Assembly: GCA_004431415.1 (NCBI GenBank)
Contig: QPMI01000587.1
Coordinates: forward strand, 1 to 64,000
DNA from: Cyanophora paradoxa CCMP329
Taxonomy: Eukaryota > Plantae > Glaucophyta
Direction of reading: 5' to 3'
Length of the DNA stretch: 64,000 nucleotides
Shown: positions 13,001 to 36,674 of the stretch, piece after piece
Layout: every line of letters starts with the position of its first letter
Numbering within the stretch: position 1 is the stretch's first letter
Program-made: the position numbers and the translations under genes
The notes under the pieces: generated by a model
What the model saw: the letters and a program-made list of their open reading frames with translations, nothing else
Databases searched by the model: none
Told to the model about the DNA's origin: nothing

Positions 13001-15966
13001 ATTCCCCCGGAGAGATTTGAAGTGCATCTTTCCTCTATTTTGTGGCAGATCGGAAACCTGGGCCTTCGACTGAGTGACTTGCTGGTGGGTGGGTCATCTT
13101 CCCAAGGCAAGCGCCTTGTGCATATTCCCCAGAGAGATTTGAAGTGCATCTTTCTTCTATTTTGTGGCAGATGAGAAACCTGCGGCCTCCGACTGGGTGA
13201 TTTGCTGGTGGGTGGGTCATCTTCCTAAGGCTAGCGCCTTGGGCATATTCCCCCAGAGAGATTTGGGGTGCATCTTTCTTTTTCTTCTGGCAGATCAGAA
13301 ACCTGGGGCCTTTGACTGAGTGACTTGCGGGTGGGAGGGTCATCTTCCTAAGGCTAGCGCCTTGTGCATATTCCCCCTTCGACTGACTGACTTGCTGGTG
13401 GGTGGGTCATCTTCCCAAGGCAAGCGCCTTGTGCATATTCCCCCAGAGAGATTTGAAGTGCATCTTTCTTCTATTTTGTGGCAGATGAGAAACCTGGGGC
13501 CTCCGACTGAGTGACTTGCTGGTGGGTGGGTCATCTTCCCAAGGCTAGCGCCTTGGGCATATTCCCCCAGAGAGATTTGGGGTGCATCTTTCTTCTATTT
13601 TGTGGCAGATGAGAAACCTGCGGCCTCTGCCTGGGTGACTTGCTGGTGGGTGGGTCATCTTCCTAAGGCTAGCGCCTTGGGCATATTCCCCAGAGAGATT
13701 TGGGGTGCATCTTTCTTTTTCTTCTGGCAGATCGGAAACCTGGGGCCTTTGACTGAGTGACTTGCGGGTGGGAGGGTCATCTTCCTAAGGCTAGCACCTT
13801 GTGCATATTCCCCCTTCGACTGACTGACTTGCTGGTGGGTGGGTCATCTTCCCAAGGCAAGCGCCTTGTGCATATTCCCCCGGAGAGATTTGAAGTGCAT
13901 CTTTCCTCTATTTTGTGGCAGATCGGAAACCTGGGGCCTTCGACTGAGTGACTTGCTGGTGGGTGGGTCATCTTCCCAAGGCAAGCGCCTTGTGCATATT
14001 CCCCCAGAGAGATTTGAAGTGCATCTTTCTTCTATTTTGTGGCAGATGAGAAACCTGCGGCCTCCGACTGGGTGATTTGCTGGTGGGTGGGTCATCTTCC
14101 TAAGGCTAGCGCCTTGGGCATATTCCCCCAGAGAGATTTGGGGTGCATCTTTCTTTTTCTTCTGGCAGATCAGAAACCTGGGGCCTTTGACTGAGTGACT
14201 TGCGGGTGGGAGGGTCATCTTCCTAAGGCTAGCGCCTTGTGCATATTCCCCCTTCGACTGACTGACTTGCTGGTGGGTGGGTCATCTTCCCAAGGCAAGC
14301 GCCTTGTGCATATTCCCCCAGAGAGATTTGAAGTGCATCTTTCTTCTATTTTGTGGCAGATGAGAAACCTGGGGCCTCCGACTGAGTGACTTGCTGGTGG
14401 GTGGGTCATCTTCCCAAGGCTAGCGCCTTGGGCATATTCCCCCAGAGAGATTTGGGGTGCATCTTTCTTCTATTTTGTGGCAGATGAGAAACCTGCGGCC
14501 TCTGCCTGGGTGACTTGCTGGTGGGTGGGTCATCTTCCTAAGGCTAGCGCCTTGGGCATATTCCCCCAGAGAGATTTGGGGTGCATCTTTCTTTTTCTTC
14601 TGGCAGATCGGAAACCTGGGGCCTTTGACTGAGTGACTTGCGGGTGGGAGGGTCATCTTCCTAAGGCTAGCACCTTGTGCATATTCCCCCTTCGACTGAC
14701 TGACTTGCTGGTGGGTGGGTCATCTTCCCAAGGCAAGCGCCTTGTGCATATTCCCCCGGAGAGATTTGAAGTGCATCTTTCCTCTATTTTGTGGCAGATC
14801 GGAAACCTGGGGCCTTCGACTGAGTGACTTGCTGGTGGGTGGGTCATCTTCCCAAGGCAAGTGCCTTGTGCATATTCCCCCAGAGAGATTTGAAGTGCAT
14901 CTTTCTTCTATTTTGTGGCAGATGAGAAACCTGCGGCCTCCGACTGGGTGATTTGCTGGTGGGTGGGTCATCTTCCTAAGGCTAGCGCCTTGGGCATATT
15001 CCCCCAGAGAGATTTGGGGTGCATCTTTCTTTTTCTTCTGGCAGATCAGAAACCTGGGGCCTTTGACTGAGTGACTTGCGGGTGGGAGGGTCATCTTCCT
15101 AAGGCTAGCGCCTTGTGCATATTCCCCCTTCGACTGACTGACTTGCTGGTGGGTGGGTCATCTTCCCAAGGCAAGCGCCTTGTGCATATTCCCCCAGAGA
15201 GATTTGAAGTGCATCTTTCTTCTATTTTGTGGCAGATGAGAAACCTGGGGCCTCCGACTGAGTGACTTGCTGGTGGGTGGGTCATCTTCCCAAGGCTAGC
15301 GCCTTGGGCATATTCCCCCAGAGAGATTTGGGGTGCATCTTTCTTCTATTTTGTGGCAGATGAGAAACCTGCGGCCTCTGCCTGGGTGACTTGCTGGTGG
15401 GTGGGTCATCTTCCTAAGGCTAGCGCCTTGGGCATATTCCCCCAGAGAGATTTGGGGTGCATCTTTCTTTTTCTTCTGGCAGATCGGAAACATGGGGCCT
15501 TTGACTGAGTGACTTGCGGGTGGGAGGGTTATCTGCCTGAGGCTAGCGCCTTGTGCATATTCCCCCTTCGACTGACTGACTTGCTGGTGGGTGGGTCATC
15601 TTCCCAAGGCAAGCGCCTTGTGCATATTCCCCCAGAGAGATTTGAAGTGCATCTTTCTTCTATTTTGTGGCAGATCGGAAACCTGGGGCCTTCGACTGAG
15701 TGACTTGCTGGTGGGTGGGTCATCTTCCCAAGGCTAGCGCCTTGTGCATATTCCCCCAGAGAGATTTGGGGTGCATCTTTCTTCTATTTTGTGGCAGATG
15801 AGAAACCTGCGGCCTCTGACTGGGTGACTTGCTGGTGGGTGGGTCATCTTCCTAAGGCTAGCGCCTTGGGCATATTCCCCCAGAGAGATTTGGGGTGCAT
15901 CTTTCTTTTTCTTCTGGCAGATCGGAAACCTGGGGCCTTTGACTGAGTGACTTGCGGTTGGGAGGG
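4020..15966 (+). repeat. Satellite A array, segment 2, with higher-order repeats (~314, ~438 and ~876 bp periods)
   Basis: Same monomers. Spurious ORFs recur at 314-bp (11210/11524), 438-bp (13757/14195/14633) and 876-bp (13844/14720) spacing. Confidence 0.97.
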
Positions 15967-16286
15967 AGCTCAGCGTGGCGCCATGCCCCCAAAAAATAAA
16001 ACCCAAATTCCCCCGATAATCCCGATAATAAACCGATTTTTCCGAAAATCTCAGTAAGACTCAGTAATAGAATCGATAAAATCGAAATTTATCGTAATGT
16101 ATCGATAGATTAACCCGCGAAGCCCCCGAGATCTATTTCATCCCGATAATCCCGATAATCCCGATACTCACCCGAAAATCTCAGTAAGACTCAGTAAGAC
16201 TATACGCGCAATACGCTTTTATTCATTGCATCGACAAAAACATGAAATTCGCCGCCATGCCCCCGAAATTTTACATCGTTTCCCCC
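15967..16286 (+). repeat. Left terminal inverted repeat (320 bp)
   Basis: Reverse complement of 29872-30183 apart from one extra TCCCGATAA unit, one homopolymer difference and one substitution. Internal CCCGATAAT and CTCAGTAAGA iterations. Confidence 0.95.
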
Positions 16287-16289
16287 CTA

Positions 16290-16410
16290 ACCATTTTTTT
16301 GGTTGCGCAACCATTTTTTTTGGTTGCGCAACCACCGCAACCAGGTCGCGCAACCACTGAACCAGGTCGCGCAACCATCCCGCAACCATTTTTTTTGGTC
16401 GCGCAACCAC
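16290..16410. repeat. Subterminal array of (T)GGTTGCGCAACC(A) palindromes and variants
   Basis: Several TGGTTGCGCAACCA / GGTCGCGCAACC units separated by T-tracts. An inverted counterpart lies at 29068-29153. Confidence 0.85.
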
Positions 16411-16461
16411 CCCGTCAAGGGCAAAAAATGACGCCTTGCACCGAAAAAATGATTGCTAACC

Positions 16462-16746
16462 ATGAGTATCCCAAAAGAATATTTCGATCTTATCGGGGTC
16501 AACCTCGATCTTTCAGAAGACGAGAAAAACAAAGAAATCGGGCGTCGCGCATTCACACGTTTAACCGGTTGCAATCTTTCGCAAGTTCAGAGTTCCGCCA
16601 GAAAGACTTTGAAAAAATCAGCAGAAAAGGTTGTTGAACGCTCGTTTACGTATCATGAAAACCTCAAATTAGCGGAAGCCCGCCACGATTCCAACTTCGC
16701 AAGACTGAGACTGAGAATGAAACTCGAAGCCAAAAAGCAATCCTAA
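16462..16746 (+). CDS. Small hypothetical viral protein (~94 aa, basic, helical)
   Basis: ATG at 16462, preceded by the CAAAAAATGACGCC motif. Converges on and overlaps the ATPase stop by 4 nt. Confidence 0.6.
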   Translation: MSIPKEYFDLIGVNLDLSEDEKNKEIGRRAFTRLTGCNLSQVQSSARKTLKKSAEKVVERSFTYHENLKLAEARHDSNFARLRLRMKLEAKKQS

Positions 16747-17501
16747 ACCGTAATCGTTGTCGGTTCCCTACTAATTCTCGCTCCACCACTCTTTTTTATC
16801 GCTCTTCGTCTCATAAACTTCCTAAAACCTTTCATGTCATCATCTGTCAAAATCGCGCGATCTGTGTAAGTTTTTATGTCATAACCTTGCAAACTTGCGA
16901 TTACAGTTTGATAATTATATCCCCACAGGCGATGTAATTCTTTGTAAGTTTTCTTATCCATTCCGCCATTGTATTCATCGTAAGCGCAGTTGAACTCTTT
17001 TTCGTTCCCAAGAATATTAAAAAATACAACGAATTCCACATTACGACGAATGGTAGTAGAAATAGAACATATACGTTGGACATTAAAAATAACCGAAATC
17101 GAATAATGGCGTCCACTCGTTACCAATTTAGATAACACAGCATTATAATGCATGTCCAGTGTGGAACCTATCATGTCATCAAGAATCAAAACTAAATTGT
17201 GGCGTTTCTCGTTGTTCTCGATTCGTTTTTTTTGCATGCTGATCAATCTTAAAACTAAATCATCATTCCATTCCTCGTAAATATTATCGGGGTGGGTGAT
17301 GTCTCTAAATTGACCAGTAAACGCAGTCGAACTAAAAACAACGATCTGATCGATTTTATCGCGTAATTCGTAAAGTAAATATTTAGTGAACATTGTCTTA
17401 CCAGTGTTGGAGCGTCCACAATTTAAGATTCGCGTAGGTATTTTAACTGTTCTGTTCGGCTCGAATTCCGGTATATCGTTTAAGTCTACTGTGTTATCCA
17501 T
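16743..17501 (-). CDS. A32-like (FtsK/HerA superfamily) DNA packaging ATPase
   Basis: Walker A GRSNTGKT, Walker B LVLILDD, and A32-type SGRHYSISVIFNVQ motif. 252 aa. Confidence 0.92.
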   Translation of the reverse strand: MDNTVDLNDIPEFEPNRTVKIPTRILNCGRSNTGKTMFTKYLLYELRDKIDQIVVFSSTAFTGQFRDITHPDNIYEEWNDDLVLRLISMQKKRIENNEKRHNLVLILDDMIGSTLDMHYNAVLSKLVTSGRHYSISVIFNVQRICSISTTIRRNVEFVVFFNILGNEKEFNCAYDEYNGGMDKKTYKELHRLWGYNYQTVIASLQGYDIKTYTDRAILTDDDMKGFRKFMRRRAIKKSGGARISREPTTITV

Positions 17502-17551
17502 TACAGTAATCCCATAAAAAAACGATTAAGCCAATAACCCACACCAATCGC

Positions 17552-18778
17552 TTAGAAGTTACTTACTTTAAGCGTAGAAATATTATAGCCGTTGAGAACG
17601 AGAACGTTGTGGCGAAGTGCGTAAATGTCAACAACAACAGGTGCAGCATCAGTGCAACCGGAAACTGTGAGATCCATGTAGGAACTCGAAGAGTTGAAGA
17701 AATCTTGGTAACCCATGACAGAGTTGTGCAGGGAATCCTTACCGGACTTCGAAAGAACGATCCCGTAAACATTGCCGCCTTGGAATCCGAAGTTTACATT
17801 ACCTACGGTAGTTCCCTTGTAATGCGAGGGGATGTGGTTCACAGCCGAAAGGAACCCGCTAATCGGTCGGTTCGAGATGTCGAGAGAACGGTTATTGTGG
17901 AAGATTTGGAATTGATCAATCCTAACATTTCCTTCGTAACCCTCGAAATCTGAATGCGTGTATTTGTTAAGTTTGTTCACTTCGCGCACTGTCATGAGAA
18001 TGCTGTGAACAAGACCGGAAACATTCGCAAGCGAAACCTCGACAGATTCGCCCGCGTCGGCGGTTTTTAGAGATCGAGTTCGCTTCTGAATCACTTCGGT
18101 AATTGGGATGCGAATGCCCCCTTGTTCGTTCGCCATTTTCAGTAGCGCTTCCGCCTCGGGGGAGGCGATGTTAACGAATTGACAGATGAGGGCGCAGTCG
18201 TTCATAGCAACCTTTCCGCCCTCGGGAACCTGAACTACCGCAGCTTCGCGGAAGTCGACCTCAATCGTAGGCATATCGGCAAGAACGCAAAGTGGGAAAT
18301 ACGCATCATCCCAGAATTGCGCCGGAATTTTAACGACATATTCCCAGGTCTTATCGGTGCTGTTTCGGTTGTTCTCAGAGTAGTAACCCAGCGAAACAAA
18401 CATGCTCGCCATTGTGGCGTGGTCGTTATCGACGAGCGCATTAACTGTAATCCAATCGCCGGGAATAATGTATTTAAACCCACCGTGAACGAAGCGGACT
18501 TCGGAAATAAACGACGAACCACCATTGGGCATTACGCATTGAACGGCGCCACCCGTTGTGACCTTAAAATTGAGACTAACACCGCTCAGAAGTTGCTTAC
18601 GCGGTAGATCAAAGTAAGCGGTTGTTTTGAATCCGAAAGTGTTACCACGAGGGCGGACTTGCTCTAAAAACGGTTTATACTTGGGATTGGTTCCGATTTG
18701 AAGACCAGGAGATAAATATACTTGATCCGAACCGGGAGTCACAAGTAGTTCTTTAAGAGTTGTTCCACTAAGCGCCAT
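17552..18778 (-). CDS. Major capsid protein (double jelly-roll type)
   Basis: 408 aa with beta-strand pattern. FG..TAYFDLPR..LLS and FPLCVL...IEVDFR segments resemble PLV/NCLDV MCPs. Lies between the ATPase and minor capsid genes. Confidence 0.8.
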   Translation of the reverse strand: MALSGTTLKELLVTPGSDQVYLSPGLQIGTNPKYKPFLEQVRPRGNTFGFKTTAYFDLPRKQLLSGVSLNFKVTTGGAVQCVMPNGGSSFISEVRFVHGGFKYIIPGDWITVNALVDNDHATMASMFVSLGYYSENNRNSTDKTWEYVVKIPAQFWDDAYFPLCVLADMPTIEVDFREAAVVQVPEGGKVAMNDCALICQFVNIASPEAEALLKMANEQGGIRIPITEVIQKRTRSLKTADAGESVEVSLANVSGLVHSILMTVREVNKLNKYTHSDFEGYEGNVRIDQFQIFHNNRSLDISNRPISGFLSAVNHIPSHYKGTTVGNVNFGFQGGNVYGIVLSKSGKDSLHNSVMGYQDFFNSSSSYMDLTVSGCTDAAPVVVDIYALRHNVLVLNGYNISTLKVSNF

Positions 18779-18830
18779 TTTCGCTGTTTACAATACAACA
18801 AGAAATTTTTAAATTACAATAATAAACAGA

Positions 18831-19724
18831 ATGACGCGTTATTATATTAATATTGATTCGAGAGATCGCGAAAACGGAACTCCATCCGAATTTCTCTACA
18901 AACTTCCCCATGCAATTCAAAAGGTAAAAGCATGCAGAGTTACCAATTTCGAAATGTTTAACAATATTTACAACCTTGCAGAAGCAGGATCACGTACCAC
19001 ATCTACCAAAGATGCAGCAGGAAGCACAAAGAACAGACATAATATTATTGCAAAAGGTTCATACACAACAGACAGTTTAGTGAATTACCTAATTGCTAAG
19101 ATTGGATCACAGAACTATTCCCAAAGTCCCTTTGGAACCTACACCAAACACTTCTATGTTACTTATGATCCCATTACTATGTTTTTAAGATTTATGTGTG
19201 AAGTTGAATTCAGCATCACTATTGGAAGTCAGATTCTTGCAAATTTCCTTGGGTTTAAAGATGCAAACAAAGTATACCCCTCAACACTTTTAGATGGGAG
19301 TGTTACCATTGGATCATACACATACACACACTACATAGACAGTGAAATACCATTAGACCTTCTATTTAATTCATACCTACTACTTCACATTGCACAACTG
19401 AAAGGCAAGTATGTGAGCAATAACATTAAAGACAATAATGCTCTTGCTAAAATTGAGATTGACAAGACAGTTGGTAGTTTGCTAAGATATGATTCTTCAA
19501 ATAATGCAATGATCACCCATGAACAGAATGGATTGGTGGAACTTGAAGCAATGGATGTAAGACTTTCTTATTGGAATGGTAACACAGCAGACATTACAAC
19601 TGATTGGAGTATGACATTAGAAGTTGTGACTGAGGATGAGAAGGAACTAACAAAGAGATCCCTTCAAAAGGTGATACAAGATTTCGAAGAGGCATTCATT
19701 CCATTTTGTAGGTCATATCTGTAA
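18831..19724 (+). CDS. Minor capsid (penton) protein
   Basis: N-terminal YYINIDSRDR...FLYKLP and C-terminal MDVRLSYWNG...DWSMTLEV, typical of PLV/Polinton pentons. Divergent from the MCP gene across a 52-bp AT-rich gap. Confidence 0.8.
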   Translation: MTRYYINIDSRDRENGTPSEFLYKLPHAIQKVKACRVTNFEMFNNIYNLAEAGSRTTSTKDAAGSTKNRHNIIAKGSYTTDSLVNYLIAKIGSQNYSQSPFGTYTKHFYVTYDPITMFLRFMCEVEFSITIGSQILANFLGFKDANKVYPSTLLDGSVTIGSYTYTHYIDSEIPLDLLFNSYLLLHIAQLKGKYVSNNIKDNNALAKIEIDKTVGSLLRYDSSNNAMITHEQNGLVELEAMDVRLSYWNGNTADITTDWSMTLEVVTEDEKELTKRSLQKVIQDFEEAFIPFCRSYL

Positions 19725-19748
19725 AAAATATATCTATGCATATATCAA

Positions 19749-20507
19749 ATGTCAGGATCCAGAAAAACCCAGCCCAAAAACTTCTTGTCAAAACCTGTTG
19801 CAGAGGCAGATGGGATAACAGAGGGAAAGAAGGGAAGGAATTGGGACAAGAAACCCAAAGGAACAGCAGCACTTGGAACAGGTGATCTTGACAAGGACAT
19901 CCACAAAATGATGAACCAGCACACAGCAACACCAACCGATAATGCGAACGACGATAACGCTTTGATTGACCAGGTTCCACTGAATCGAATGCCCAAGAAG
20001 CGAAAGCATTTCAGAGAGAAGACCAAAGAGAAACTTTTACCATCCGCCACGCTTTTAAAGCTTCTCGATGGCGGCGAGCGACTTTATTCGACATACTCTG
20101 AGAAGGATAACCGCAATCGTTACTTTATCCGCTTGAAAACGGGCGGTCTTAAATCGGTCAAATACCAGGACGCCAAAAAAATGGTTCAAGGGATTGCGAA
20201 CGAGACCGCGTTAGAGAACAAGATTCTCGAACAGCAGATCACGAAAGAGAAGGTCGAAAAGAGACCGGATGTGACGTTCGACGTTCTTCCCGATCCAATC
20301 ACAACCGCGAAGAATACGCCAACTGAATTAATCGCTAAGACCATCGATTACGCGGAAAGTAACAAGACCGATTTACCGGTAATGAATAAGAGTTTACTTC
20401 GGGTCGCCACTTCGCAAGCCGACCCCATTACATCGGTTCCCTCCGCCGCCCCCATGCTTTCGGGGTTCGCAAAACTTGGGATCCGCCCCGGTTACCGGAG
20501 GTTTTAA
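19749..20507 (+). CDS. Hypothetical Lys-rich viral protein (252 aa)
   Basis: Long ATG-initiated ORF directly after the penton gene. No motif recognised. Confidence 0.7.
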   Translation: MSGSRKTQPKNFLSKPVAEADGITEGKKGRNWDKKPKGTAALGTGDLDKDIHKMMNQHTATPTDNANDDNALIDQVPLNRMPKKRKHFREKTKEKLLPSATLLKLLDGGERLYSTYSEKDNRNRYFIRLKTGGLKSVKYQDAKKMVQGIANETALENKILEQQITKEKVEKRPDVTFDVLPDPITTAKNTPTELIAKTIDYAESNKTDLPVMNKSLLRVATSQADPITSVPSAAPMLSGFAKLGIRPGYRRF

Positions 20508-20772
20508 AACCGACCTTTGCGTAGCCCGACGTTAATGATCATTTTGCCGTTAAAAAATTTCTTGTTCAAATGTAGCGCTACGTAAACAATCCATTCGCGT
20601 AGGCTCACGTTTACTCATTTTTATGGGTGGCGTTGTAGAAAGAAGTGATATCCATGTATATCGCGCTTTTATCACCTGTTCTACGGGGTTCATTCGTGGA
20701 AACTTGCGACCGACAAGTAGACAATCGGGGACACTTCGATTTATTTTTCCGGCATCTTCTTTCAAAACGGTG

Positions 20773-20850
20773 CAAAAAAATGACGGCTTTTCAAGACAAG
20801 TATATACCAACAACAAAAAGGACTTAAAGATTTCTTGTTATATATCAGAA
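20773..20850 (+). promoter_or_regulatory. Putative viral promoter: CAAAAAAATGACG ... ACTTAAAGA ... TATA
   Basis: Same motif order recurs at 21280-21335. The first motif also occurs at 16422. Confidence 0.5.
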
Positions 20851-20864
20851 GAGGACAAAGCACG

Positions 20865-21119
20865 ATGCCGATTAGCGAAGCACAGAAGCGCGCAATTTAC
20901 CGTTACCGCAAGACCGAAAAGGGTCGTGAATATCTGAAAAAGTACAGCAACAGACTGTCGAAACAAATGAAGGAATTATACGACACCGACGAGTGTTACC
21001 GAGCGATGAAGATAGTCGATAGTTCACAACGCCAGTACGTCGCGAACGCGGTGTGTTACATTAAATACCTTTATGGGGTTCCGCACTCAAATCGGGGGCG
21101 CCCTTCGATCTACTTCTGA
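20865..21119 (+). CDS. Small basic protein, possibly DNA-binding (84 aa)
   Basis: ATG at 20865 (MPISEAQKRAIYRYRKTEKGREY...). Shares upstream motifs with the replicase gene. Confidence 0.65.
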   Translation: MPISEAQKRAIYRYRKTEKGREYLKKYSNRLSKQMKELYDTDECYRAMKIVDSSQRQYVANAVCYIKYLYGVPHSNRGRPSIYF

Positions 21120-21279
21120 AATTGTTTTTTCTCAGCGCGTTTGCCCTGAGAACCCAGCGCGAGCGCAACCGCGCTTAATCGTAATAAATCTTGTTTGTAT
21201 TATTTTTAGAACCATTGTATGATGGTCGACCCTTTGTTATTTTTCTAATTTACTTGTTTGATCGCTAAAATGCAACGGT

Positions 21280-21335
21280 CAAAAAATGACGCCGTAAAAT
21301 AAAATCACTTAAAGAATAAATTTATTTGTATAGAA
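21280..21335 (+). promoter_or_regulatory. Putative viral promoter upstream of the replicase
   Basis: CAAAAAATGACGCC, then ACTTAAAGA, then TGTATA, ending ~20 nt before ATG 21355. Confidence 0.5.
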
Positions 21336-21354
21336 TAAGAAAAGCGCCAACGAA

Positions 21355-22476
21355 ATGCCTCGCGCAGTTAGTATCCAATCCGCGAAGAAGAGAGCGAGTA
21401 TTCTTTCGAAGCTTGGTTATGCTCTTGGAAATGGGTTTATGAATGAAGAGCAATTTAACGCATTCGGTCACTTTGCCTTCGTCAGACGACCGAGACTAAG
21501 CGCACTAAACGACATCGAATTCTCAATTGATGATATCATTGCGAGAGGTGAGGCTCAGCAAAACACAGAAGATGAAATTAACCGCTTGGGTCGTATTGAT
21601 GTTCCGCAGGAGTTGGTGAATCAGCGACCAGAGAGAAATACAAAGACACACACGAACCCGTTCAATCGGATGAAAACCGACCTTCGCGAGTTCATTGAAA
21701 ACTCGCCCGGTAACATGGTCACAATTCACATTCGACTCTTTCGGGAATTGAGGGAGGGCGAGGCAGCCCCCCCGCACGTAAACCGGGTCGTCGACCCCGA
21801 GAATGGAATTACGTATATCGAAGCGAAGCGAGTTCGCAACAATCGCCCCCTCGCTGTTCAATGCACAAAAGAAGCCTTCCTTGTTGCATCTAATCTGAAT
21901 CTTGGAACGTTTAACACATTCCCGTGTGTGACGGGTGAACGTATCTACGATTTCATTTTCCAAGTGATCGATTTCAACAAGCAAAACCAAGATTTCCGTT
22001 ACCTTCGCCATGTCGAAATGGACATTTACCCTGAGATCATGACAATCGAGCGAATCATTACTACCGATAACCAAACGCACATCCCAAGAAATGAGCAAAT
22101 TCTTCGGGACAATACGCACGCGCCTATGATCATTTCGAACTACTTGCGCTACGCAATGAATCCTGAGGCGAAGACTTTTCAGGACATGTTTCTTAGAGGC
22201 AATGCGTTCAAAGTCGGGAAGTGTGTGTTTGATGTTCTTATTCAGCAGTTCACACCAGCGTATGCGAAAGCAAAAGAAAAGGGAAAATACAAGAAAGTGG
22301 ATTGGTCATACGAGGGATTATTTACGATGGTTCGGGGGCGCCCGCCAGTTGAAGGGGATGATTGGGGTGTGTCCTTCGCGGAAGTGGTTACAAAGATTCT
22401 CGAACCGCTACGCTTGGGAATGGTAACGCCGGGCGGCGACGCCCCTGCCGTCGACCCCACTAAAGTGGCAACGTGA
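21355..22476 (+). CDS. N-terminal part of the replicase (putative terminal protein plus first half of an OTU-like protease domain)
   Basis: 373-aa ORF whose last ~17 codons run into the GC-rich insert. Candidate catalytic Cys in GKCVFDVL. A candidate His motif (IENEHMY) lies in the downstream frame. Confidence 0.6.
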   Translation: MPRAVSIQSAKKRASILSKLGYALGNGFMNEEQFNAFGHFAFVRRPRLSALNDIEFSIDDIIARGEAQQNTEDEINRLGRIDVPQELVNQRPERNTKTHTNPFNRMKTDLREFIENSPGNMVTIHIRLFRELREGEAAPPHVNRVVDPENGITYIEAKRVRNNRPLAVQCTKEAFLVASNLNLGTFNTFPCVTGERIYDFIFQVIDFNKQNQDFRYLRHVEMDIYPEIMTIERIITTDNQTHIPRNEQILRDNTHAPMIISNYLRYAMNPEAKTFQDMFLRGNAFKVGKCVFDVLIQQFTPAYAKAKEKGKYKKVDWSYEGLFTMVRGRPPVEGDDWGVSFAEVVTKILEPLRLGMVTPGGDAPAVDPTKVAT

Positions 22477-22624
22477 CCGCCTGCACTGCGATGGCGCAGC
22501 CAGGGGGGGTGTCCCAGGGGTCCAAAGAGACACCCCGGTAAGACACCGGACTGGACTACGTCCCTCGGTCGCTGAGATAGAGGGGCAAGTGTCAGTAGAA
22601 TAGACGCCGATGGCGTCCCCTCCG
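22423..22624 (+). other. GC-rich, hairpin-dense insert interrupting the replicase gene (candidate intron or structured RNA)
   Basis: About 66% GC by hand count over 22425-22624, against A-rich coding flanks. At least six stems. Contains stops. Removing 176 nt (22423-22598) or 200 nt (22425-22624) joins the two ORFs in frame. Confidence 0.6.
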
Positions 22625-25603
22625 GACCTATCACCCCAAAACACGAAACAAACACCTTGTTCCCTGTGTTGCATACGTTAAGATCGAAAACGAACACATG
22701 TATTTGCTCAACCACAATGTGAAATCACTAACGCAATCTTTCAACGGATCAAAGCCGAAAGATACGACGCTTTCGCTCGGATCTCGTTACAAGATCATCA
22801 AGCAAAGGAGACACAAAGAATTCGCTTCGAATCCGGATGAGATCGTCAAGATTCTGAATTCGGATACTCTGAAAAATCAGTCGAAGATTCGCATTTGTTA
22901 TGGGGCGCCGCTCGATGAATTGTTTACACAATTTGTGGTGAATCACAATTATCAAGTTCATGCAACAATCTCGCCCATGAAAAAGATCACTCAGATTCAC
23001 TTCACGATCGAAGACAAGGATGTAGTAATTACCCCGCCAGGTTCAGACACCGAAGTAGAAACAGCCTTCGAGATTCAGTTCAGAAATGCTGAGTATCGCG
23101 AAAAATTCGAGAAACTGAACTTGGCGATGTATCGCACTCTGATCAATTCCGCGAACAAGAGTTGCTATAATGAGCAAACGCAAACAGCCTTCAAAATCGG
23201 ATCACAAACAGCACTTCGTGGACTGTTCGACTTGGATGAACAAATTCGCGAAGAGATCTATTACAGCGAAGACATCAAAGAGGTCGACATGTGTAAGGCG
23301 TATCCTCACATTATCGCGAATCTGATTGAGTTCGTTCCGGTTCTGAGCAAGTTCGATGTGTTCAAAAAAGCCTCGATTGCTTCGGCGGACGAAATCGAAG
23401 AATACAGCTTCTACTGCGTGACTCTGAACGAAAAATACTTCGTCAAGCGGAAGGACAAGAACGGGAACAAGTTCGAGGCAAACACGTATGATAGATACAA
23501 GCGCATGATAGTTAGTGATCGCTACAATGTTATCCCCGGTTTGGTTCTAAAAAAACATTACAGCGACTTCAAGGACGACATACGCATTACCGGGGTTCTA
23601 CGACCATACAAATTGGTTCGTAACCTTGCGGGTCACACAGTCAAGCAAGTATTAGAGAGCGATCTCGAATCGACCGATAAGAAACAGATTCTCGTTTCAA
23701 ACACGGGTCAACTTGGGAAGCAAAAAAATAGCAGGGTGAAGACGACAGTATTTAATAAGCGCGATGATGCGATTGAGTTCCAGAAGCAACACGGCGGGGA
23801 AGTGAAGATATACTTTTTGGGGAAAGACCCCACAACCTACGACCCCACCACATTCGTTATGAGTGAATGCGATATGACAGAACCCCACGTTTACTACGTT
23901 AATCAGGTTTCGGAAAAGCAATTGATTGATGGATTTCTACCGTTCCACAATCTCATGTATTCACTCATGCGCATGTGCATGTATGAGAAGTGCATAGAAC
24001 TCGCAAAATTGCAAATCTATCCTCTCGCGATGAATACGGATTGTGTCTACGCAATCGGATCCATGGAATCCGTAGACTTTAACCGAAATGCATTTGAGAA
24101 TATCGGGCGATTCAGTGTGAAGCCATGCAGGAATTTCTACAAGAAGTTCGTGGGCGAAAAGAAAGATTTGGAATACAAGCGCATCCGATGCGGAAGGTTT
24201 GAGCGAGCGGAAGATTTCGTTAAAATTCAGGAGTTCGGGTTTCAACGCCACACCGTAACCGATGAGTTCAACACCCTCGCTATCTGTGACCTCCTCGCAA
24301 CCCAAAAGCGGTGGGTTCTACTTGGGGTCGTGCCGGGCGTGGGAAAGACTTACATGACAATTGAATACGGCAAGCGATTCAAAAACCCGCTTTACATCGT
24401 TCCGACAAACAAGCGCGTGAAAGAGATGAAAGAACAAGGTTTGAAAAACGTAAAGACAATCTACGATGCGCTTCACCTGAAAATTGACGAATCCGCAATG
24501 GATGAGATCGTCGGGGGCAACTCAGCCGGATTAGTCGAATACGATTGCATCATAATCGATGAAATCTGTCAGTTCAAAATTGGCGAGTTATCCGCTCTCG
24601 ATCACATCATGAGTGTGCAGTTCCCCGACAAGGATTACATAGCTACGGGGATCCCTTCCAGAACCCACCGATTCAGGACATGACGGTAGACCAGAAAGAA
24701 TACTACTTGGACATCCTACATCGACTGTTTGAAAACGAGTTGCTTCTACAAGTCAACAAGCGACACGAAAGCGTGGAAGATCGCAGAACAGTAGAGAAAA
24801 TACACACTGACTTGTTCGAGAAAGGATTGAGTGTATCTGATGTGATCGAAAAGTATCAATTCAAGAGGGTTGATACTGTGGAGAAAACGGACGTCGCGAT
24901 AGTTTACACCAATAGGAAGGGCGCCGAAGTGAATCTAAATCTTCACAGAATGAACTACGGGGAAGATGTGCCGATTTTCGCGAGCGGCGTTAAGATCGTC
25001 GCAAAGACGCGCATGGTCAAGAATGGTTACACGATTCATAACGGATTCACTTACAACATTGTGAACTTTTCCGAAAAGGAATTCGTTATTGAGGATGTTG
25101 CGAGCGGTGAGCATATCAAGTTGGAATCTGATGCGGTTAAACATTTCGCTCTGTCGTATGCTCACACTTGTCACGTAATACAGGGCGATACGATTCGGTG
25201 CGAAGGGAACCGGGTGGTGGTGTTTGAGGCGGGGGCGCCCTTTGTTTCGAAGGAGTGGCTTTACGTCGCATTGACAAGAACAACGCGACTAAGTGATGTT
25301 GTGATTTACCACAATGGCTACGAGTATGCAGATTGGATAGTTTACAAGCGCGACGGGAACGAAAAAATCGCGACTTACAAGGATCAAGACCGGATTGCGA
25401 ACAGACTGTATGACGACAAAGATTACATCACTTGGGATTGGATTAAGAAGCGCTACGGCAAGCAATACGGTCACTGTGGTCGGTGCTACGATGCTTTGGA
25501 TTTCGCCGATATCTCAGTGGATCGAGTGAACAATGCAGTGGCGCATATCACTAAAAATTGTTTCCTGTCTCATATTAAGTGTATTATTAAGTGTCTCATA
25601 TAA
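22599..25603 (+). CDS. PolB-like + SF1 (RecD/Pif1-like) helicase + HNH-like fusion replicase, copy 1 (frameshift near 24645, altered C-terminus)
   Basis: PolB motifs DMCKAYP, KQILVSNTGQLGK and NTDC. Helicase motifs GVGKT, IIIDEI, GDPFQNPP, TCHVIQG and YVALTR. C-terminal CGRC...DRVNN..AH..N. GGGG here versus GGGGG in copy 2 causes the frameshift. Frame is open from 22599. Confidence 0.85.
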
Positions 25604-27997
25604 ACAGCACTTCGTGGACTGTTCGACTTGGATGAACAAATTCGCGAAGAGATCTATTACAGCGAAGACATCAAAGAGGTCGACATGTGTAAGGCGTATC
25701 CTCACATTATCGCGAATCTGATTGAGTTCGTTCCGGTTCTGAGCAAGTTCGATGTGTTCAAAAAAGCCTCGATTGCTTCGGCGGACGAAATCGAAGAATA
25801 CAGCTTCTACTGCGTGACTCTGAACGAAAAATACTTCGTCAAGCGGAAGGACAAGAACGGGAACAAGTTCGAGGCAAACACGTATGATAGATACAAGCGC
25901 ATGATAGTTAGTGATCGCTACAATGTTATCCCCGGTTTGGTTCTAAAAAAACATTACAGCGACTTCAAGGACGACATACGCATTACCGGGGTTCTACGAC
26001 CATACAAATTGGTTCGTAACCTTGCGGGTCACACAGTCAAGCAAGTATTAGAGAGCGATCTCGAATCGACCGATAAGAAACAGATTCTCGTTTCAAACAC
26101 GGGTCAACTTGGGAAGCAAAAAAATAGCAGGGTGAAGACGACAGTATTTAATAAGCGCGATGATGCGATTGAGTTCCAGAAGCAACACGGCGGGGAAGTG
26201 AAGATATACTTTTTGGGGAAAGACCCCACAACCTACGACCCCACCACATTCGTTATGAGTGAATGCGATATGACAGAACCCCACGTTTACTACGTTAATC
26301 AGGTTTCGGAAAAGCAATTGATTGATGGATTTCTACCGTTCCACAATCTCATGTATTCACTCATGCGCATGTGCATGTATGAGAAGTGCATAGAACTCGC
26401 AAAATTGCAAATCTATCCTCTCGCGATGAATACGGATTGTGTCTACGCAATCGGATCCATGGAATCCGTAGACTTTAACCGAAATGCATTTGAGAATATC
26501 GGGCGATTCAGTGTGAAGCCATGCAGGAATTTCTACAAGAAGTTCGTGGGCGAAAAGAAAGATTTGGAATACAAGCGCATCCGATGCGGAAGGTTTGAGC
26601 GAGCGGAAGATTTCGTTAAAATTCAGGAGTTCGGGTTTCAACGCCACACCGTAACCGATGAGTTCAACACCCTCGCTATCTGTGACCTCCTCGCAACCCA
26701 AAAGCGGTGGGTTCTACTTGGGGTCGTGCCGGGCGTGGGAAAGACTTACATGACAATTGAATACGGCAAGCGATTCAAAAACCCGCTTTACATCGTTCCG
26801 ACAAACAAGCGCGTGAAAGAGATGAAAGAACAAGGTTTGAAAAACGTAAAGACAATCTACGATGCGCTTCACCTGAAAATTGACGAATCCGCAATGGATG
26901 AGATCGTCGGGGGCAACTCAGCCGGATTAGTCGAATACGATTGCATCATAATCGATGAAATCTGTCAGTTCAAAATTGGCGAGTTATCCGCTCTCGATCA
27001 CATCATGAGTGTGCAGTTCCCCGACAAGGATTACATAGCTACGGGGGATCCCTTCCAGAACCCACCGATTCAGGACATGACGGTAGACCAGAAAGAATAC
27101 TACTTGGACATCCTACATCGACTGTTTGAAAACGAGTTGCTTCTACAAGTCAACAAGCGACACGAAAGCGTGGAAGATCGCAGAACAGTAGAGAAAATAC
27201 ACACTGACTTGTTCGAGAAAGGATTGAGTGTATCTGATGTGATCGAAAAGTATCAATTCAAGAGGGTTGATACTGTGGAGAAAACGGACGTCGCGATAGT
27301 TTACACCAATAGGAAGGGCGCCGAAGTGAATCTAAATCTTCACAGAATGAACTACGGGGAAGATGTGCCGATTTTCGCGAGCGGCGTTAAGATCGTCGCA
27401 AAGACGCGCATGGTCAAGAATGGTTACACGATTCATAACGGATTCACTTACAACATTGTGAACTTTTCCGAAAAGGAATTCGTTATTGAGGATGTTGCGA
27501 GCGGTGAGCATATCAAGTTGGAATCTGATGCGGTTAAACATTTCGCTCTGTCGTATGCTCACACTTGTCACGTAATACAGGGCGATACGATTCGGTGCGA
27601 AGGGAACCGGGTGGTGGTGTTTGAGGCGGGGGCGCCCTTTGTTTCGAAGGAGTGGCTTTACGTCGCATTGACAAGAACAACGCGACTAAGTGATGTTGTG
27701 ATTTACCACAATGGCTACGAGTATGCAGATTGGATAGTTTACAAGCGCGACGGGAACGAAAAAATCGCGACTTACAAGGATCAAGACCGGATTGCGAACA
27801 GACTGTATGACGACAAAGATTACATCACTTGGGATTGGATTAAGAAGCGCTACGGCAAGCAATACGGTCACTGTGGTCGGTGCTACGATGCTTTGGATTT
27901 CGCCGATATCTCAGTGGATCGAGTGAACAATGCAGTGGCGCATATCACTAAAAATTGTTTCCTGTCTCATATTAAGTGTAATTGCGCCGCGCAATAA
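25604..27997 (+). CDS. Duplicated C-terminal ~800 aa of the replicase, copy 2 (intact frame, native C-terminus, no N-terminus)
   Basis: 25602-27980 repeats 23206-25583. Same motifs in one frame, ending HIKCNCAAQ. Confidence 0.85.
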   Translation, partial: TALRGLFDLDEQIREEIYYSEDIKEVDMCKAYPHIIANLIEFVPVLSKFDVFKKASIASADEIEEYSFYCVTLNEKYFVKRKDKNGNKFEANTYDRYKRMIVSDRYNVIPGLVLKKHYSDFKDDIRITGVLRPYKLVRNLAGHTVKQVLESDLESTDKKQILVSNTGQLGKQKNSRVKTTVFNKRDDAIEFQKQHGGEVKIYFLGKDPTTYDPTTFVMSECDMTEPHVYYVNQVSEKQLIDGFLPFHNLMYSLMRMCMYEKCIELAKLQIYPLAMNTDCVYAIGSMESVDFNRNAFENIGRFSVKPCRNFYKKFVGEKKDLEYKRIRCGRFERAEDFVKIQEFGFQRHTVTDEFNTLAICDLLATQKRWVLLGVVPGVGKTYMTIEYGKRFKNPLYIVPTNKRVKEMKEQGLKNVKTIYDALHLKIDESAMDEIVGGNSAGLVEYDCIIIDEICQFKIGELSALDHIMSVQFPDKDYIATGDPFQNPPIQDMTVDQKEYYLDILHRLFENELLLQVNKRHESVEDRRTVEKIHTDLFEKGLSVSDVIEKYQFKRVDTVEKTDVAIVYTNRKGAEVNLNLHRMNYGEDVPIFASGVKIVAKTRMVKNGYTIHNGFTYNIVNFSEKEFVIEDVASGEHIKLESDAVKHFALSYAHTCHVIQGDTIRCEGNRVVVFEAGAPFVSKEWLYVALTRTTRLSDVVIYHNGYEYADWIVYKRDGNEKIATYKDQDRIANRLYDDKDYITWDWIKKRYGKQYGHCGRCYDALDFADISVDRVNNAVAHITKNCFLSHIKCNCAAQ

Positions 27998-29067
27998 TGG
28001 AACAGATCCTCTCTTACTCAAAGTATCGTCAGAAACTGATAAATGAAAAAGTGCGATTTGATGAAAAAGAATTGAAAAAGCGATTTGAGAATTCGGAACT
28101 CCAACAGATCTTTAAGAAACCGAAAAAGCCGAAATCGTTCCTTCGAATTGTCGCGAAACCGAATTCATTTCAAGTAGACATCATGTTCTTTCGAGGTTAT
28201 CAGACAGCAAATAATGGTTATTTTAAAATGATTAGTTTTGTAGACATTCTCAGCAGAAAGGCATTTGTGTATCCTTTTAAAACCAATGAAGAGATTCCGA
28301 GTATTTTAAATAGGTTCAAACGAGATGCAGGTAAGGTTAGTGCATTGTCAGGCGATAATGAATTTTCGAATGCAGTCTACCGAAATTGGTGTAGCGAAAA
28401 TGGTGTTACACTTTACACAGATTTAGCAAAAGATGATCACATTACTGTGGGGGATAAACTTGGGATAATCGATAGGTTCACGAGAACCTTCAAGCAGTAT
28501 TTAAGGAAGGCTATGACTTCCAAGGGAACAACGAAATGGATTGATTTAGTGGGAGATGGGGTGGATTTATACAACAGTAGCCCACATTCGGCATTGAAGA
28601 ATGATTCGCCGAACGCAGTTTACGCAAGTGAAGACAAGCAACTTTTTATTTACATGCGCGACACAGTTCACAACAATAACGTGAAGGCAAACGACCCGAA
28701 CACAATCAAACCGGGTGATACTGTTCGCGTTTTGCAACCGCGAGGCGCATTCGAAAAAGAAGGCGCGCAATTCAGTCAGAAGGTCTATAAGGTGGGGAAA
28801 ACCGACCGGAACAGGTTCAAAGTTTTAGAGGACAACGATGGGGAGACACCGAAAGAGGTAGCGAGGCGCTTTAAAAAGCAGGAATTGCAAAAAGTGAACG
28901 CGGAGGAAATTATAAGAATTCCGTCGCAAAAGCGCATCGAACGCGTAAAGAAAACGAATAAAGTGAATAGATTGGTCACAAAGGAAGGGATTAGACCCAA
29001 CCGTAGCAAGGTCGTGAGGCGCCGCTACTATCTGAGAAGTGGGTTGACCAAGCGCGGGGGGTCTTAA
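27997..29067 (+). CDS. Retroviral-type (rve) integrase
   Basis: FQVDIMF, VDILSRKAFVYP, SGDNEF, GIIDRFTRTFK and YNSSPHSAL..SP motifs. ATG overlaps the replicase stop (TAATG). Confidence 0.9.
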   Translation: MEQILSYSKYRQKLINEKVRFDEKELKKRFENSELQQIFKKPKKPKSFLRIVAKPNSFQVDIMFFRGYQTANNGYFKMISFVDILSRKAFVYPFKTNEEIPSILNRFKRDAGKVSALSGDNEFSNAVYRNWCSENGVTLYTDLAKDDHITVGDKLGIIDRFTRTFKQYLRKAMTSKGTTKWIDLVGDGVDLYNSSPHSALKNDSPNAVYASEDKQLFIYMRDTVHNNNVKANDPNTIKPGDTVRVLQPRGAFEKEGAQFSQKVYKVGKTDRNRFKVLEDNDGETPKEVARRFKKQELQKVNAEEIIRIPSQKRIERVKKTNKVNRLVTKEGIRPNRSKVVRRRYYLRSGLTKRGGS

Positions 29068-29153
29068 AAAAATGGTTGCGCAACCAGGTTGCGGTGGTTG
29101 CGCGACCAGGTTGCGGTGGTTGCGCGACCAGGTTTCGGTGGTGGCGCAACCAG
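29068..29153. repeat. Inverted counterpart of the left subterminal GGTTGCGCAACC array
   Basis: AAAAATGGTTGCGCAACCAGGTTGCGGTGGTTGCGCGACCAGG... is the reverse complement of the unit types at 16290-16410. Confidence 0.8.
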
Positions 29154-29180
29154 TTGAGGGGGGCATTGTGGTTGTCACAG

Positions 29181-29887
29181 ATGGCTTCTCCAACGGCAAC
29201 CATTATTCTTCTTCTCGCCAGTTACTTCGATCGATCCGGACATGTCGACTCTTACCAAGATCCCAATAATCTTGATGTCGGAAAGTTTAGTGTATCACTG
29301 GACGTTCCCTCCAACATTTACGATCTAATTGCTTCTCTCGGCATTCCGTATGAAGTGAAAAATAGTAAGGTGACATTTCGCGATACCAATGCTATCGATT
29401 TCCTCGGCGCAATCGATAGACTCGCTACACGCGGTAAAGGCGGCGAAATGATAGATCGATTCACATACAATCTCATGCCCACCGTCAAAATCTCATGCCC
29501 ACCGTCCTCCCCACAAAGAGACGCCCCTCTGATGTCGGCTACGATCTTTCTATAATCGGCGTTTCGAAGGTCTTCTCCGATGTCGTTACCCTCTATGATA
29601 CGGGTTTTAAAATCGCCGTCGAACCCGGGTATTACGTCGAGATCGTTCCACACAGTAATCTTTCTGACTCAGGTCATATACTTGCCAACAGTGTCGGGAT
29701 AATTGAGGCATCCTATCGCGGAAACATATTCGTTGCGCTAACAAAAATCGATGCTTCCGCGCCCTCGATAAAATTCCCCTTCCGTTGTTGTCTAATGATC
29801 GTCCGGAAACAGTTTTTTGCAAATCTTGTCGATGCCGACATTGCGACATGGGACGAAACTTTTCAGGTTGCGGGGGAAACGATGTAA
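29181..29887 (+). pseudogene. Degenerate dUTPase with N-terminal extension, frameshifted and truncated at the TIR
   Basis: SDVGYDL, DTGF, PHS (for PRS) and GIIEASYRG (for GxIDxxYRG). Motif V absent. A 20-bp-period duplication of AATCTCATGCCCACCGTC (29469-29506) shifts the frame. Stop lies inside the TIR. Confidence 0.8.
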
Positions 29888-30183
29888 AATTTCGGGAGCA
29901 TGGCGGCGAATTTCATGTTTTTGTCGATGCAATGAATAAAAGCGTATTGCGCGTATAGTCTTACTGAGTCTTACTGAGATTTTCGGGTGAGTATCGGGAT
30001 TATCGGGATGAAATAGATCTCGGGGGCTTCGCGGGTTAATCTATCGATACATTACGATAAATTTCGATTTTATCGATTCTATTACTGAGTCTTACTGAGA
30101 TTTTCGGAAAAATCGGTTTATTATCGGGATTATCGGGGGAATTTGGGTTTTATTTTTTTGGGGGCATGGCGCCACGCTGAGCT
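29872..30183 (-). repeat. Right terminal inverted repeat (312 bp)
   Basis: Reverse complement of 15967-16286. Confidence 0.95.
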
Positions 30184-36100: not shown

Positions 36101-36674
36101 CTGAGTGACTTGCGGGTGGGAGGGTCATCTGCCTAAGGCTAGCGCCCTGTGCATATTCCCCCTTCGACTGACTGACTTGCTGGTGGGTGGGTCATCTTCC
36201 CGAGGCGAGCGCCTTGTGCATATTCCCCCAGAGAGATTTGAAGTGCATCTCTCTTCTATTTTGTGGCGGATCAGAAACCTGGGGCCTTCAACTGAGTGAC
36301 TTGCTGGTGGGTGGGTCATCTGCCTAAGGCTAGCGCCTTGTGCATATTCCCCCAGAGAGATTTGGGGTGCATCTTTCTTTTATTTTGTGGCAGATCGGAA
36401 ACCTGGGGCCTTCGACTGAGTGACTTGCTGGTGGGTGGGTCATCTGCCTAAGGCTAGCGCCTTGGGCATATTCCCCCAGAGGGATTCCCCCCTTCTTTTT
36501 TCTGGCAGATGAGAAACCTGGGGCCTTCGACTGAATGTCTTGCTTTTGGGAGGGTCATCTGCCTAAGGCTAGGGCCTTGTGAATATTCCCCCAGAGAAAT
36601 TTGGGGTGCATTCTTCTTCTATTTTGTGGCAGATCGGAAACCTGGGGCCTTTGACTGAGTGACTTGCTGGTGGG
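30184..36674 (+). repeat. Satellite A array, segment 3
   Basis: Resumes in register after the TSD (GAGGG|TCATCTGCC). Carries its own variants such as GCATTTAAGTGGG and TAAGACTAGC. Confidence 0.97.

What the first reader, a model, noticed from the sequence alone, without database searches (positions are those of the whole stretch)
22423..22624. Structured ~200-nt RNA-like insert splits the viral replicase gene; possible splicing or recoding switch
Seen: a ~66% GC block in otherwise A-rich coding DNA, dense in stems: GGCGG/CCGCC 22432-22481, CCAC-TAAA-GTGG, CTGCG-ATGG-CGCAG, GGGGTGTC/GACACCCC, CCGGT/ACCGG, CCCTC/GAGGG and GACGCC-GAT-GGCGTC. It stops the upstream ORF at 22476. The downstream frame already looks protein-like before its first ATG (YHPKTRNKHLVPCVAYVKIENEHMY). 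Two excisions restore the frame. One is GT..AG 22423-22598 (176 nt). The other is U|...G 22425-22624 (200 nt), which has a P1-like UGGU/GCCG helix, a GACAC/GUGUC P7-like pairing and a terminal hairpin, loosely group-I-like but without canonical GACUA/UAGUC. Knowledge: Polinton-type PolBs carry an N-terminal terminal protein and an OTU-like protease. Inference: the insert separates candidate catalytic Cys (GKCVF) and His (NEHMY), so unspliced RNA would give terminal protein alone and spliced RNA the full replicase. That would be an unusual RNA switch for a PLV.
Basis: partly seen in the sequence, partly recalled or inferred. Interest (0 to 1): 0.85.

Follow-up and report, generated by a model that had tools for sequence, protein, structure and literature searches.

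The report
Stray ribozyme breaks viral replicase gene
A compact, self-splicing-type (group I-like) RNA element that also occurs elsewhere in the same organism has replaced 36 coding bases in the replication gene of an integrated virus, which likely cripples this copy instead of switching it on and off, and likely shows such an element landing at a new site.

Summary
The insert is real: 66% GC, and all listed stems are present. It is not a clean intron of this gene. In 8 of 8 sequencing runs laid, a sister allele lacks 22428-22624 and holds 36 other bases there, in frame and without a stop, so the insert replaced coding DNA. The gene is a one-piece pPolB-SF1 helicase. All 77 homologue segments keep the Cys and His that flank the insert and carry a 14-21-residue stretch between two anchors. 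The insert does have a group I-like core (P3, P4, P6, P7; descriptor score above all 1,500 shuffles), a terminal G and a U-G guide pair. It lacks P2, a clear P8 and any Rfam hit. The same element and three relatives sit in other sequence contexts in the organism, one with a better P1 helix. Best reading: an intron-derived segment was recombined into this virus lineage, leaving a defective copy. A working splicing switch is unlikely (about 12%), though the new site happens to rebuild P1 in frame. Group I introns in such viruses are already reported; this small, Rfam-invisible family was not found in my searches.

The parts
15967..30183 (.). Integrated Polinton-like virus of the Tlr1 type, with terminal inverted repeats and a 5-bp target-site duplication, inside satellite DNA
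   Evidence: TIR 15967-16292 / 29866-30183, 96% over 327 nt; flanking GAGGG on both sides; A32 ATPase, weak rve integrase and dUTPase hits
21355..22476 (+). 5' part of the pPolB-SF1 helicase gene; ends in 16 insert-coded residues and a stop inside the insert
   Evidence: its last 130 native residues match the homologue profile up to position 141
22222..22224 (+). Invariant Cys, candidate vOTU catalytic residue
   Evidence: 77 of 77 homologue segments; role from PMC11161782
22421..22431 (+). P1-like helix at the new site: exon UGGU with guide GCCG, U22424-G22428 wobble, 3-nt loop
   Evidence: such an exon end lies 3-8 nt upstream of 144 of 3,930 gene positions
22428..22624 (+). Foreign 197-nt group I-like segment standing in place of 36 coding bases of the sister allele
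   Evidence: joint 22427 to 22625 with 36 other letters in 8 of 8 runs
22434..22574 (+). P3: 22434-22440 with 22568-22574 (7 bp)
   Evidence: descriptor search
22443..22505 (+). P4: 22443-22447 with 22501-22505, enclosing a P5-position domain (22448-22500) shared with two relatives
   Evidence: relatives, tables 7 and 8
22506..22536 (+). P6: 22506-22513 with 22529-22536 (8 bp), directly after P4
22542..22593 (+). P7: GACAC 22542-22546 with GUGUC 22589-22593; G22542-C22593 is the candidate guanosine-binding pair
   Evidence: the same descriptor finds the true P7 of the S-PM2 psbA intron
22603..22624 (+). P9-position hairpin 22603-22617 and terminal G22624
   Evidence: the 3' end is bounded by the other context diverging after 22627
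22625..24683 (+). 3' part of the gene: rest of the vOTU-like domain, polymerase palm, start of the SF1 helicase; frame shifts near 24651
   Evidence: homologue model matches phi29 polymerase (Z 15.0) and Dda helicase (Z 13.4)
22695..22697 (+). Invariant His, candidate vOTU catalytic residue, one codon before the first ATG of the downstream ORF
   Evidence: 77 of 77 homologue segments
23206..27980 (+). 2.4-kb tandem duplication of the polymerase-helicase region, with a short templated insertion at the junction
   Evidence: junction sequence also a loose end in 4 of 4 runs

Best explanation
A 197-nt segment with a group I-like RNA core stands where sister copies of this integrated virus have 36 coding bases, and it likely arrived by a recent DNA repair or template-switch event from another copy of the element in the same genome, likely leaving this virus copy defective. 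SHOWN: the replacement and its exact ends; the one-piece gene in sister copies and relatives; the ordered P3/P4/P6/P7 core; the same element between other flanks; 1 shared base at the 5' junction and 3 at the 3' junction; premature stops in both relevant frames. INFERRED: the donor is a compact intron at its home site, where it forms a 5-bp P1 and ends at the same G. Transfer used short similarity to the donor's exon ends, which would also explain why a weak P1 re-formed. Even if the RNA still splices here, the product would lack 13 codons of a conserved beta-hairpin in the vOTU-like protease domain. The copy would then persist passively or be moved by intact sister copies.
For: Sister allele: a contig joins 22427 to 22625 through the same 36 other letters in 8 of 8 runs; by hand these keep the frame and hold no stop. 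The flanks of that contig differ from the window at only 1-2 places. Homologues: 150 best of 194 hits listed, most of them 1,000-1,600-residue proteins whose match to the downstream frame starts at residue about 300-450. In 77 segments, 14-21 residues (16 in 55) lie between the anchors; U|...G excision gives 6, the sister allele 19. A spacer scan peaks at 10 missing residues, 174.3 bits against 161.4 with none. In a homologue model (mean pLDDT 86.3) this stretch is strands 99-103 and 109-113 at about 90 pLDDT. Donor: in 4 of 4 DNA-labelled runs a contig holds 22427-22626 with 3-7 differences; other 5' and 3' flanks appear as loose ends in all four; three more relatives share only 22450-22500, 22450-22509 or 22538-22621. 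Core: score 74, 0 of 1,500 shuffles as high, best of 1,276 other windows 63, positive control found correctly. Of 8 variable sites among full-length copies, none lies in P3, P4, P7 or P9; one in P6 keeps its pair and two together swap a G-C for an A-U (read by hand). This virus family rearranges by templated joins elsewhere. PMC3984707, section 9, names illegitimate recombination as the expected route to new sites.
Against: The new site rebuilds a U-G guide helix, which only 2-7% of positions in this gene would allow, and the excision is in frame (1 in 3 by chance); selection for splicing would also explain this. Short contigs of 57-59 nt match the insert-virus junctions exactly (3' junction in 4 of 4 DNA-labelled runs, 5' junction listed in 1 of 4). 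They fall below the tool's 31-letter bridging rule, but hint that the interrupted allele is not confined to this assembly. Group I identity is incomplete: no Rfam hit to any intron family at E up to 10, no clear P8, P10 of one pair, and one variable site (22561) breaks a peripheral hairpin. The descriptor was written from recalled consensus after I had seen the sequence, with one positive control. The donor gene could not be read beyond 30 letters a side. No run on record as RNA and no raw reads were available.
Confidence: 0.7

Rival explanations
1. The element is a working intron at this site. It self-splices at U22424|...G22624 and gives a full-length replicase with a shortened, protease-dead vOTU domain that keeps its terminal protein attached, so splicing efficiency would gate replication.
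For: P1 with U-G and an in-frame excision re-formed, joint chance roughly 1-2%. Intact core helices. Hints of the interrupted allele in 4 DNA-labelled runs. PMC11161782 (passages) reports inactive vOTU domains in adenovirid and bidnavirid polymerases.
Against: 0 of 77 homologues have fewer than 14 residues at this place, against 6 after splicing, and all 77 keep both catalytic residues. The same paper says the inactive domain is never lost, which suggests a structural role. P1 has two wobbles in 4 bp; P8 and P10 are weak. Similarity-driven recombination explains the P1 without selection.
Confidence: 0.12
2. The insert is some other structured repeat (a short mobile element or non-coding RNA), and the group I core is over-read. 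It still inactivates this copy.
For: No RF00028 match while the control scores 87.8 bits. G and C runs allow many alternative stems. P8 is missing, and relatives share the P5-position domain more than the catalytic strands.
Against: The canonical order and spacing of four helices beats 1,500 shuffles. The element's ends coincide with a 5-bp U-G helix and a terminal G in its other context. Variation avoids the core helices.
Confidence: 0.1
3. The host spliceosome removes GT..AG 22423-22598 and the remaining 27 insert bases patch the lost hairpin.
For: In frame; gives 14 residues between the anchors, the lower edge of the homologue range (1 of 77).
Against: Only 2 of the 9 insert-coded residues align to the profile, +3.6 bits, and profile positions 142-150 stay unmatched. 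No pyrimidine tract precedes the AG.
Confidence: 0.05
4. The interrupted allele is an assembly chimera between two repeats, or the ribosome crosses the insert by recoding.
For: The window lies in repeat-rich DNA and has a one-base difference between its duplicated units. The junction contigs are too short to count as bridges.
Against: Exact junction-spanning short contigs occur in other runs. Recoding would need to pass two stops in the upstream frame and then shift; the downstream frame has four stops in the insert.
Confidence: 0.03

Closest known systems
Group I introns of protist Polinton-like viruses (Rhodomonas lacustris, Paulinella micropora, Desmodesmus armatus; PMC12220804, section 16 read whole, 32 of 51 rows of Table S11 seen)
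   Same: Group I-type RNA inside a gene of an integrated Polinton-like virus, with no endonuclease ORF recognised.
   Different: Those match Rfam RF00028, are 309-376 nt in R. lacustris and lie in a short gene upstream of the capsid gene. This one is about 200 nt, has no Rfam match, lies in the replicase gene and replaces coding bases.
Small phage group I intron of S-PM2 psbA (AJ630128)
   Same: About 200 nt, no P2, an insertion between P7 and P3', same core order found by the same descriptor.
   Different: It has canonical GACUA/UAGUC, a clear P8 and an Rfam score of 87.8 bits, and it is an insertion that leaves the gene whole.
pPolB-S1H ('Tlr1-like helicase') of Polinton-like viruses, TP-vOTU-palm-SF1 helicase (PMC11161782, passages)
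   Same: Domain order, invariant Cys and His, phi29-like palm and SF1 helicase folds, RVE-type integrase neighbour.
   Different: Here the gene is interrupted within the vOTU-like domain and partly duplicated. The terminal-protein domain and the OTU fold were not confirmed by a fold search.
Ectopic group I intron acquisition by illegitimate recombination (PMC3984707, section 9; the T4 study it cites, PMC1460845, seen as a title only)
   Same: Intron at an unrelated site, junctions at short shared bases, imprecise outcome.
   Different: Known mainly as a proposal and from phage experiments; here a natural case in a eukaryotic virus, with the donor-type copies and the empty allele in the same organism.

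Membership tests
Group I intron | P1 helix with U-G pair at the 5' splice site | tested here: met
   4 bp, two of them wobbles, in the window; 5 bp in the other context (loose end, read by hand)
Group I intron | Terminal G at the 3' splice site | tested here: met
   G22624 is the last base absent from the sister allele
Group I intron | P3-P7 pseudoknot with a G-C guanosine-binding pair | tested here: met
   P3 7 bp, P7 5 bp GACAC/GUGUC; 0 of 1,500 shuffles as good. The pair below the bulge is A-A and the last J6/7 base is U, both off the recalled consensus
Group I intron | P4 and P6 stacked directly, 3-nt J3/4 and J6/7 | tested here: met
   strict descriptor
Group I intron | P8 helix in the catalytic domain | tested here: not met
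   Only 14 nt lie between P3' and P7'; at best 2-3 bp that compete with P3 (sequence). For this reason it is filed as group I-like, not as a member
Group I intron | P10 pairing with the 3' exon | tested here: inconclusive
   One pair in the window, two in the other context (by hand)
Group I intron | Match to Rfam RF00028 | tested here: not met
   No intron family at E up to 10; control scores 87.8 bits
Group I intron | GTP-dependent self-splicing | not testable with these tools
   needs an in vitro assay
Group I intron | Excision restores the uninterrupted gene | tested here: not met
   Product would be 13 codons shorter than the sister allele
Spliceosomal intron | GT..AG ends with a pyrimidine tract, and excision restores the gene | tested here: not met
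   GT and AG present, no tract, product differs from the sister allele and fits the profile poorly
pPolB-S1H of Polinton-like viruses | Protein-primed polymerase palm fused to an SF1 helicase | tested here: met
   Homologue model matches phi29 polymerase (Z 15.0, rmsd 4.6, 357 aligned) and Dda (Z 13.4, rmsd 3.7, 186 aligned); Pfam AAA_19 on the window's frames
pPolB-S1H of Polinton-like viruses | vOTU domain with catalytic Cys and His before the palm | tested here: inconclusive
   Cys and His in 77 of 77 segments; the fold search of the whole model barely tested this part
pPolB-S1H of Polinton-like viruses | Terminal-protein domain | tested here: inconclusive
   No Pfam, PHROG or PDB sequence hit for the 5' part; not folded

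The most novel reading that the evidence does not exclude
A family of about 200-nt group I-like ribozymes without P2 and with almost no P8, invisible to Rfam, lives in this organism's integrated viruses and still self-splices. One member was caught jumping into the replicase gene, where it rebuilt its guide helix in frame; its splicing yields a protease-dead, terminal-protein-tethered replicase and gates replication of that virus lineage.
Probability: 0.1. Interest if true: 0.8.

Novelty: new variant of a known kind. Interest (0 to 1): 0.45.

Why it matters
How group I introns reach new, unrelated sites is an open question with little natural evidence (PMC3984707, section 9). Here the element's other copies, the empty allele and the imprecise new insertion appear to be in one organism, so the route can be read from the junctions. 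If the donor form splices, it would be among the smallest natural group I-type ribozymes and would mark a family that Rfam-based surveys of viruses miss. For the virus itself the case is probably ordinary decay of one copy, not regulation.

Tried and rejected
Rfam on the insert: only chance matches. Pattern scans: viral contigs 0, 5 and 0 hits, the 5 matching no more than 14-33 nt; metagenomes 1 hit, inside a bacterial pilin-like gene; phages 1 weak 31-nt match. No related locus in viral contigs by protein; the alignment query could not be run. No whole genome is held. No RNA holder listed; four runs guessed to be RNA were laid. They show only the uninterrupted allele as a joint and little cover over the insert, and no spliced joint appears in any of the 8 runs; contigs drop rare forms and depth is no measure of expression, so I use neither point as evidence. 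The 8 runs carry one organism label and may be one campaign. My first core assignment (P3 22473-79/22566-72, P7 GACUA/UAGAC) was dropped: its P7 has a mismatch and the descriptor found a better arrangement. In the sliding control the insert's own core did not fall wholly inside a scanned window, so it was scored apart. Hammerhead, HDV-like, twister, lariat-capping and IRES folds were tried by eye from recalled consensus and did not fit. Readthrough or frameshift is rejected on the stops. Host lineage was not established (searches gave no names; the Atlas gave no answer). The whole-model fold search listed no OTU protein, which tests nothing for that domain. Of 152 stored proteins, 90 matched the start of the downstream frame and 77 had enough upstream sequence to be counted; 63 were aligned for the model. 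Paper searches found no description of a 200-nt, Rfam-negative intron in a pPolB-S1H gene; subscription papers and preprint supplements were not searchable.

Full report
Setting. The finding lies in a 14.2-kb integrated virus (15967-30183) with terminal inverted repeats and a 5-bp target-site duplication, inside a satellite array. It encodes an A32 packaging ATPase, an integrase-like protein and a dUTPase; two further ORFs are taken as capsid genes by position only. The host is a eukaryote with Ty3/gypsy and LINE elements; its lineage was not established.

Observation. The insert, its GC content, its stems and the two frame-keeping excisions are as described. Folding energy is only mildly unusual (z -2.38, -1.5).

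The gene is normally one piece. The downstream frame finds 194 relatives; the best 150 were listed, mostly 1,000-1,600 residues long, with the match beginning some 300-450 residues in. A profile of 77 homologue segments matches both the end of the upstream ORF and the start of the downstream frame. A model of one homologue matches phi29 polymerase and SF1 helicases. This is the TP-vOTU-palm-SF1 helicase protein of PMC11161782 (passages read). The OTU fold itself rests on that paper, not on a search here.

The insert replaced coding DNA. In 8 of 8 runs laid, a contig passes from 22427 to 22625 through the same 36 other bases, which keep the frame and hold no stop (frame read by hand). The flanks are nearly identical to the window, so the event is recent. 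Between two anchor residues the homologues have 14-21 residues (16 in 55 of 77), the sister allele 19, the U|...G product 6 and the GT..AG product 14, nine of them insert-coded. A scan with X spacers peaks at 10 missing residues. In the homologue model the stretch is a confident beta-hairpin, strands 99-103 and 109-113. Neither excision restores the gene. Recoding is blocked by two stops in one frame and four in the other.

What the insert is. Rfam gives nothing. A descriptor of the group I core, written from recalled consensus, found P3 22434-40/22568-74, P4 22443-47/22501-05, P6 22506-13/22529-36 and P7 22542-46/22589-93 in canonical order and spacing. The score, 74, was not reached by 1,500 dinucleotide shuffles (maximum 69) or by 1,276 other windows (maximum 63), and the descriptor found the true core of the S-PM2 psbA intron. 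Against full membership: no clear P8, a weak P10, and two off-consensus bases beside the guanosine site. P2 is absent, which PMC3984707 (passages) allows. I call it group I-like, perhaps a reduced or decaying intron.

It exists elsewhere in the organism. In 4 of 4 DNA-labelled runs a contig holds 22427-22626 with 3-7 differences, and other flanks appear at both ends. In that context the 5' flank ends in CCGGU, which pairs 5 bp with the guide GCCGG and ends on a U-G pair; the 3' flank starts right after the same G. Read by hand, the two flanks join in an open frame in two of three phases, one resembling a capsid motif (recalled, untested). Three further relatives share only 22450-22500, 22450-22509 or 22538-22621 and carry other hairpins outside. 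Of 8 variable sites among full-length copies none is in P3, P4, P7 or P9, one keeps a P6 pair, two swap a G-C for an A-U in a side hairpin, and one breaks that hairpin.

Mechanism. Donor-type and sister contigs overlap by 1 base at the 5' junction and 3 bases at the 3' junction. The first bases after the exon U are the virus's own, not the donor's, which does not fit precise reverse splicing. A repair or template-switch event guided by short similarity to the donor's exon ends fits best (inference); the same gene has a templated insertion at its duplication junction, and PMC3984707 (section 9 read whole) expects illegitimate recombination for moves to new sites. The oddity that remains is that the new site rebuilds a U-G helix in frame, which chance gives about 1-2% of the time. 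Similarity-guided recombination explains it; selection for splicing is the rival. Short exact contigs over the junctions hint that the interrupted allele is in other samples too, but they are under the tool's bridging length.

Comparison. Group I introns in Polinton-like viruses are reported for three protist groups; those of R. lacustris are 309-376 nt and Rfam-positive (PMC12220804, section 16 whole; 32 of 51 table rows seen). PMC11296320 and bioRxiv 2023.08.22.554363 (passages) and PMC12721341 (abstract) added nothing on introns. Unchecked notes of this scan mention such introns in other Polintons.

Verdict. A real group I-like element, a real and recent replacement, and most likely a crippled virus copy (0.70). 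A working splice switch is possible but unlikely (0.12). The value lies in the small Rfam-invisible family and in the snapshot of an imprecise move. Interest 0.45; new variant of a known kind.

Noticed in passing
window 23206-25583 and 25602-27980: A 2.4-kb tandem duplication of the polymerase-helicase region. The junction has a short templated insertion and appears as a loose end in 4 of 4 runs, so it is a real shared allele. The first unit ends with an altered C-terminus and the second unit is an open 770-residue frame starting inside the polymerase.
   Followed up: partly
window near 24651: One-base difference in a homopolymer between the duplicated units shifts the frame of the first unit; real or a sequencing error.
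   Followed up: partly
window 27850-27997; P0001, P0002 C-termini: The replicase ends in a Cys-rich domain; in two homologues it matches PHROG 1035, endonuclease VII. It could supply breaks for the rearrangements seen (speculation).
   Followed up: no
loose ends at 22448, 22500, 22509, 22538, 22621: At least three relatives of the element with different peripheral hairpins (one with a UUCG loop, one with a longer 3' domain). One appears to have a different P7 sequence.
   Followed up: partly
window 21300-21720: Many short variant contigs and loose ends at the gene's 5' end point to several related virus variants sharing this part.
   Followed up: no
window 1-15966, 30225-36684, 39166-40453: Satellite array built from 124-nt and 67-nt units with higher-order periods of about 190, 314 and 438 nt; the virus sits inside it.
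   Followed up: no
window 37844-63261: Cluster of Ty3/gypsy pieces (one 1,410-residue pol) and a two-frame LINE whose only listed relative is 25% identical.
   Followed up: partly
window 29495-29887: dUTPase gene at the right end of the virus, reaching the terminal repeat.
   Followed up: no
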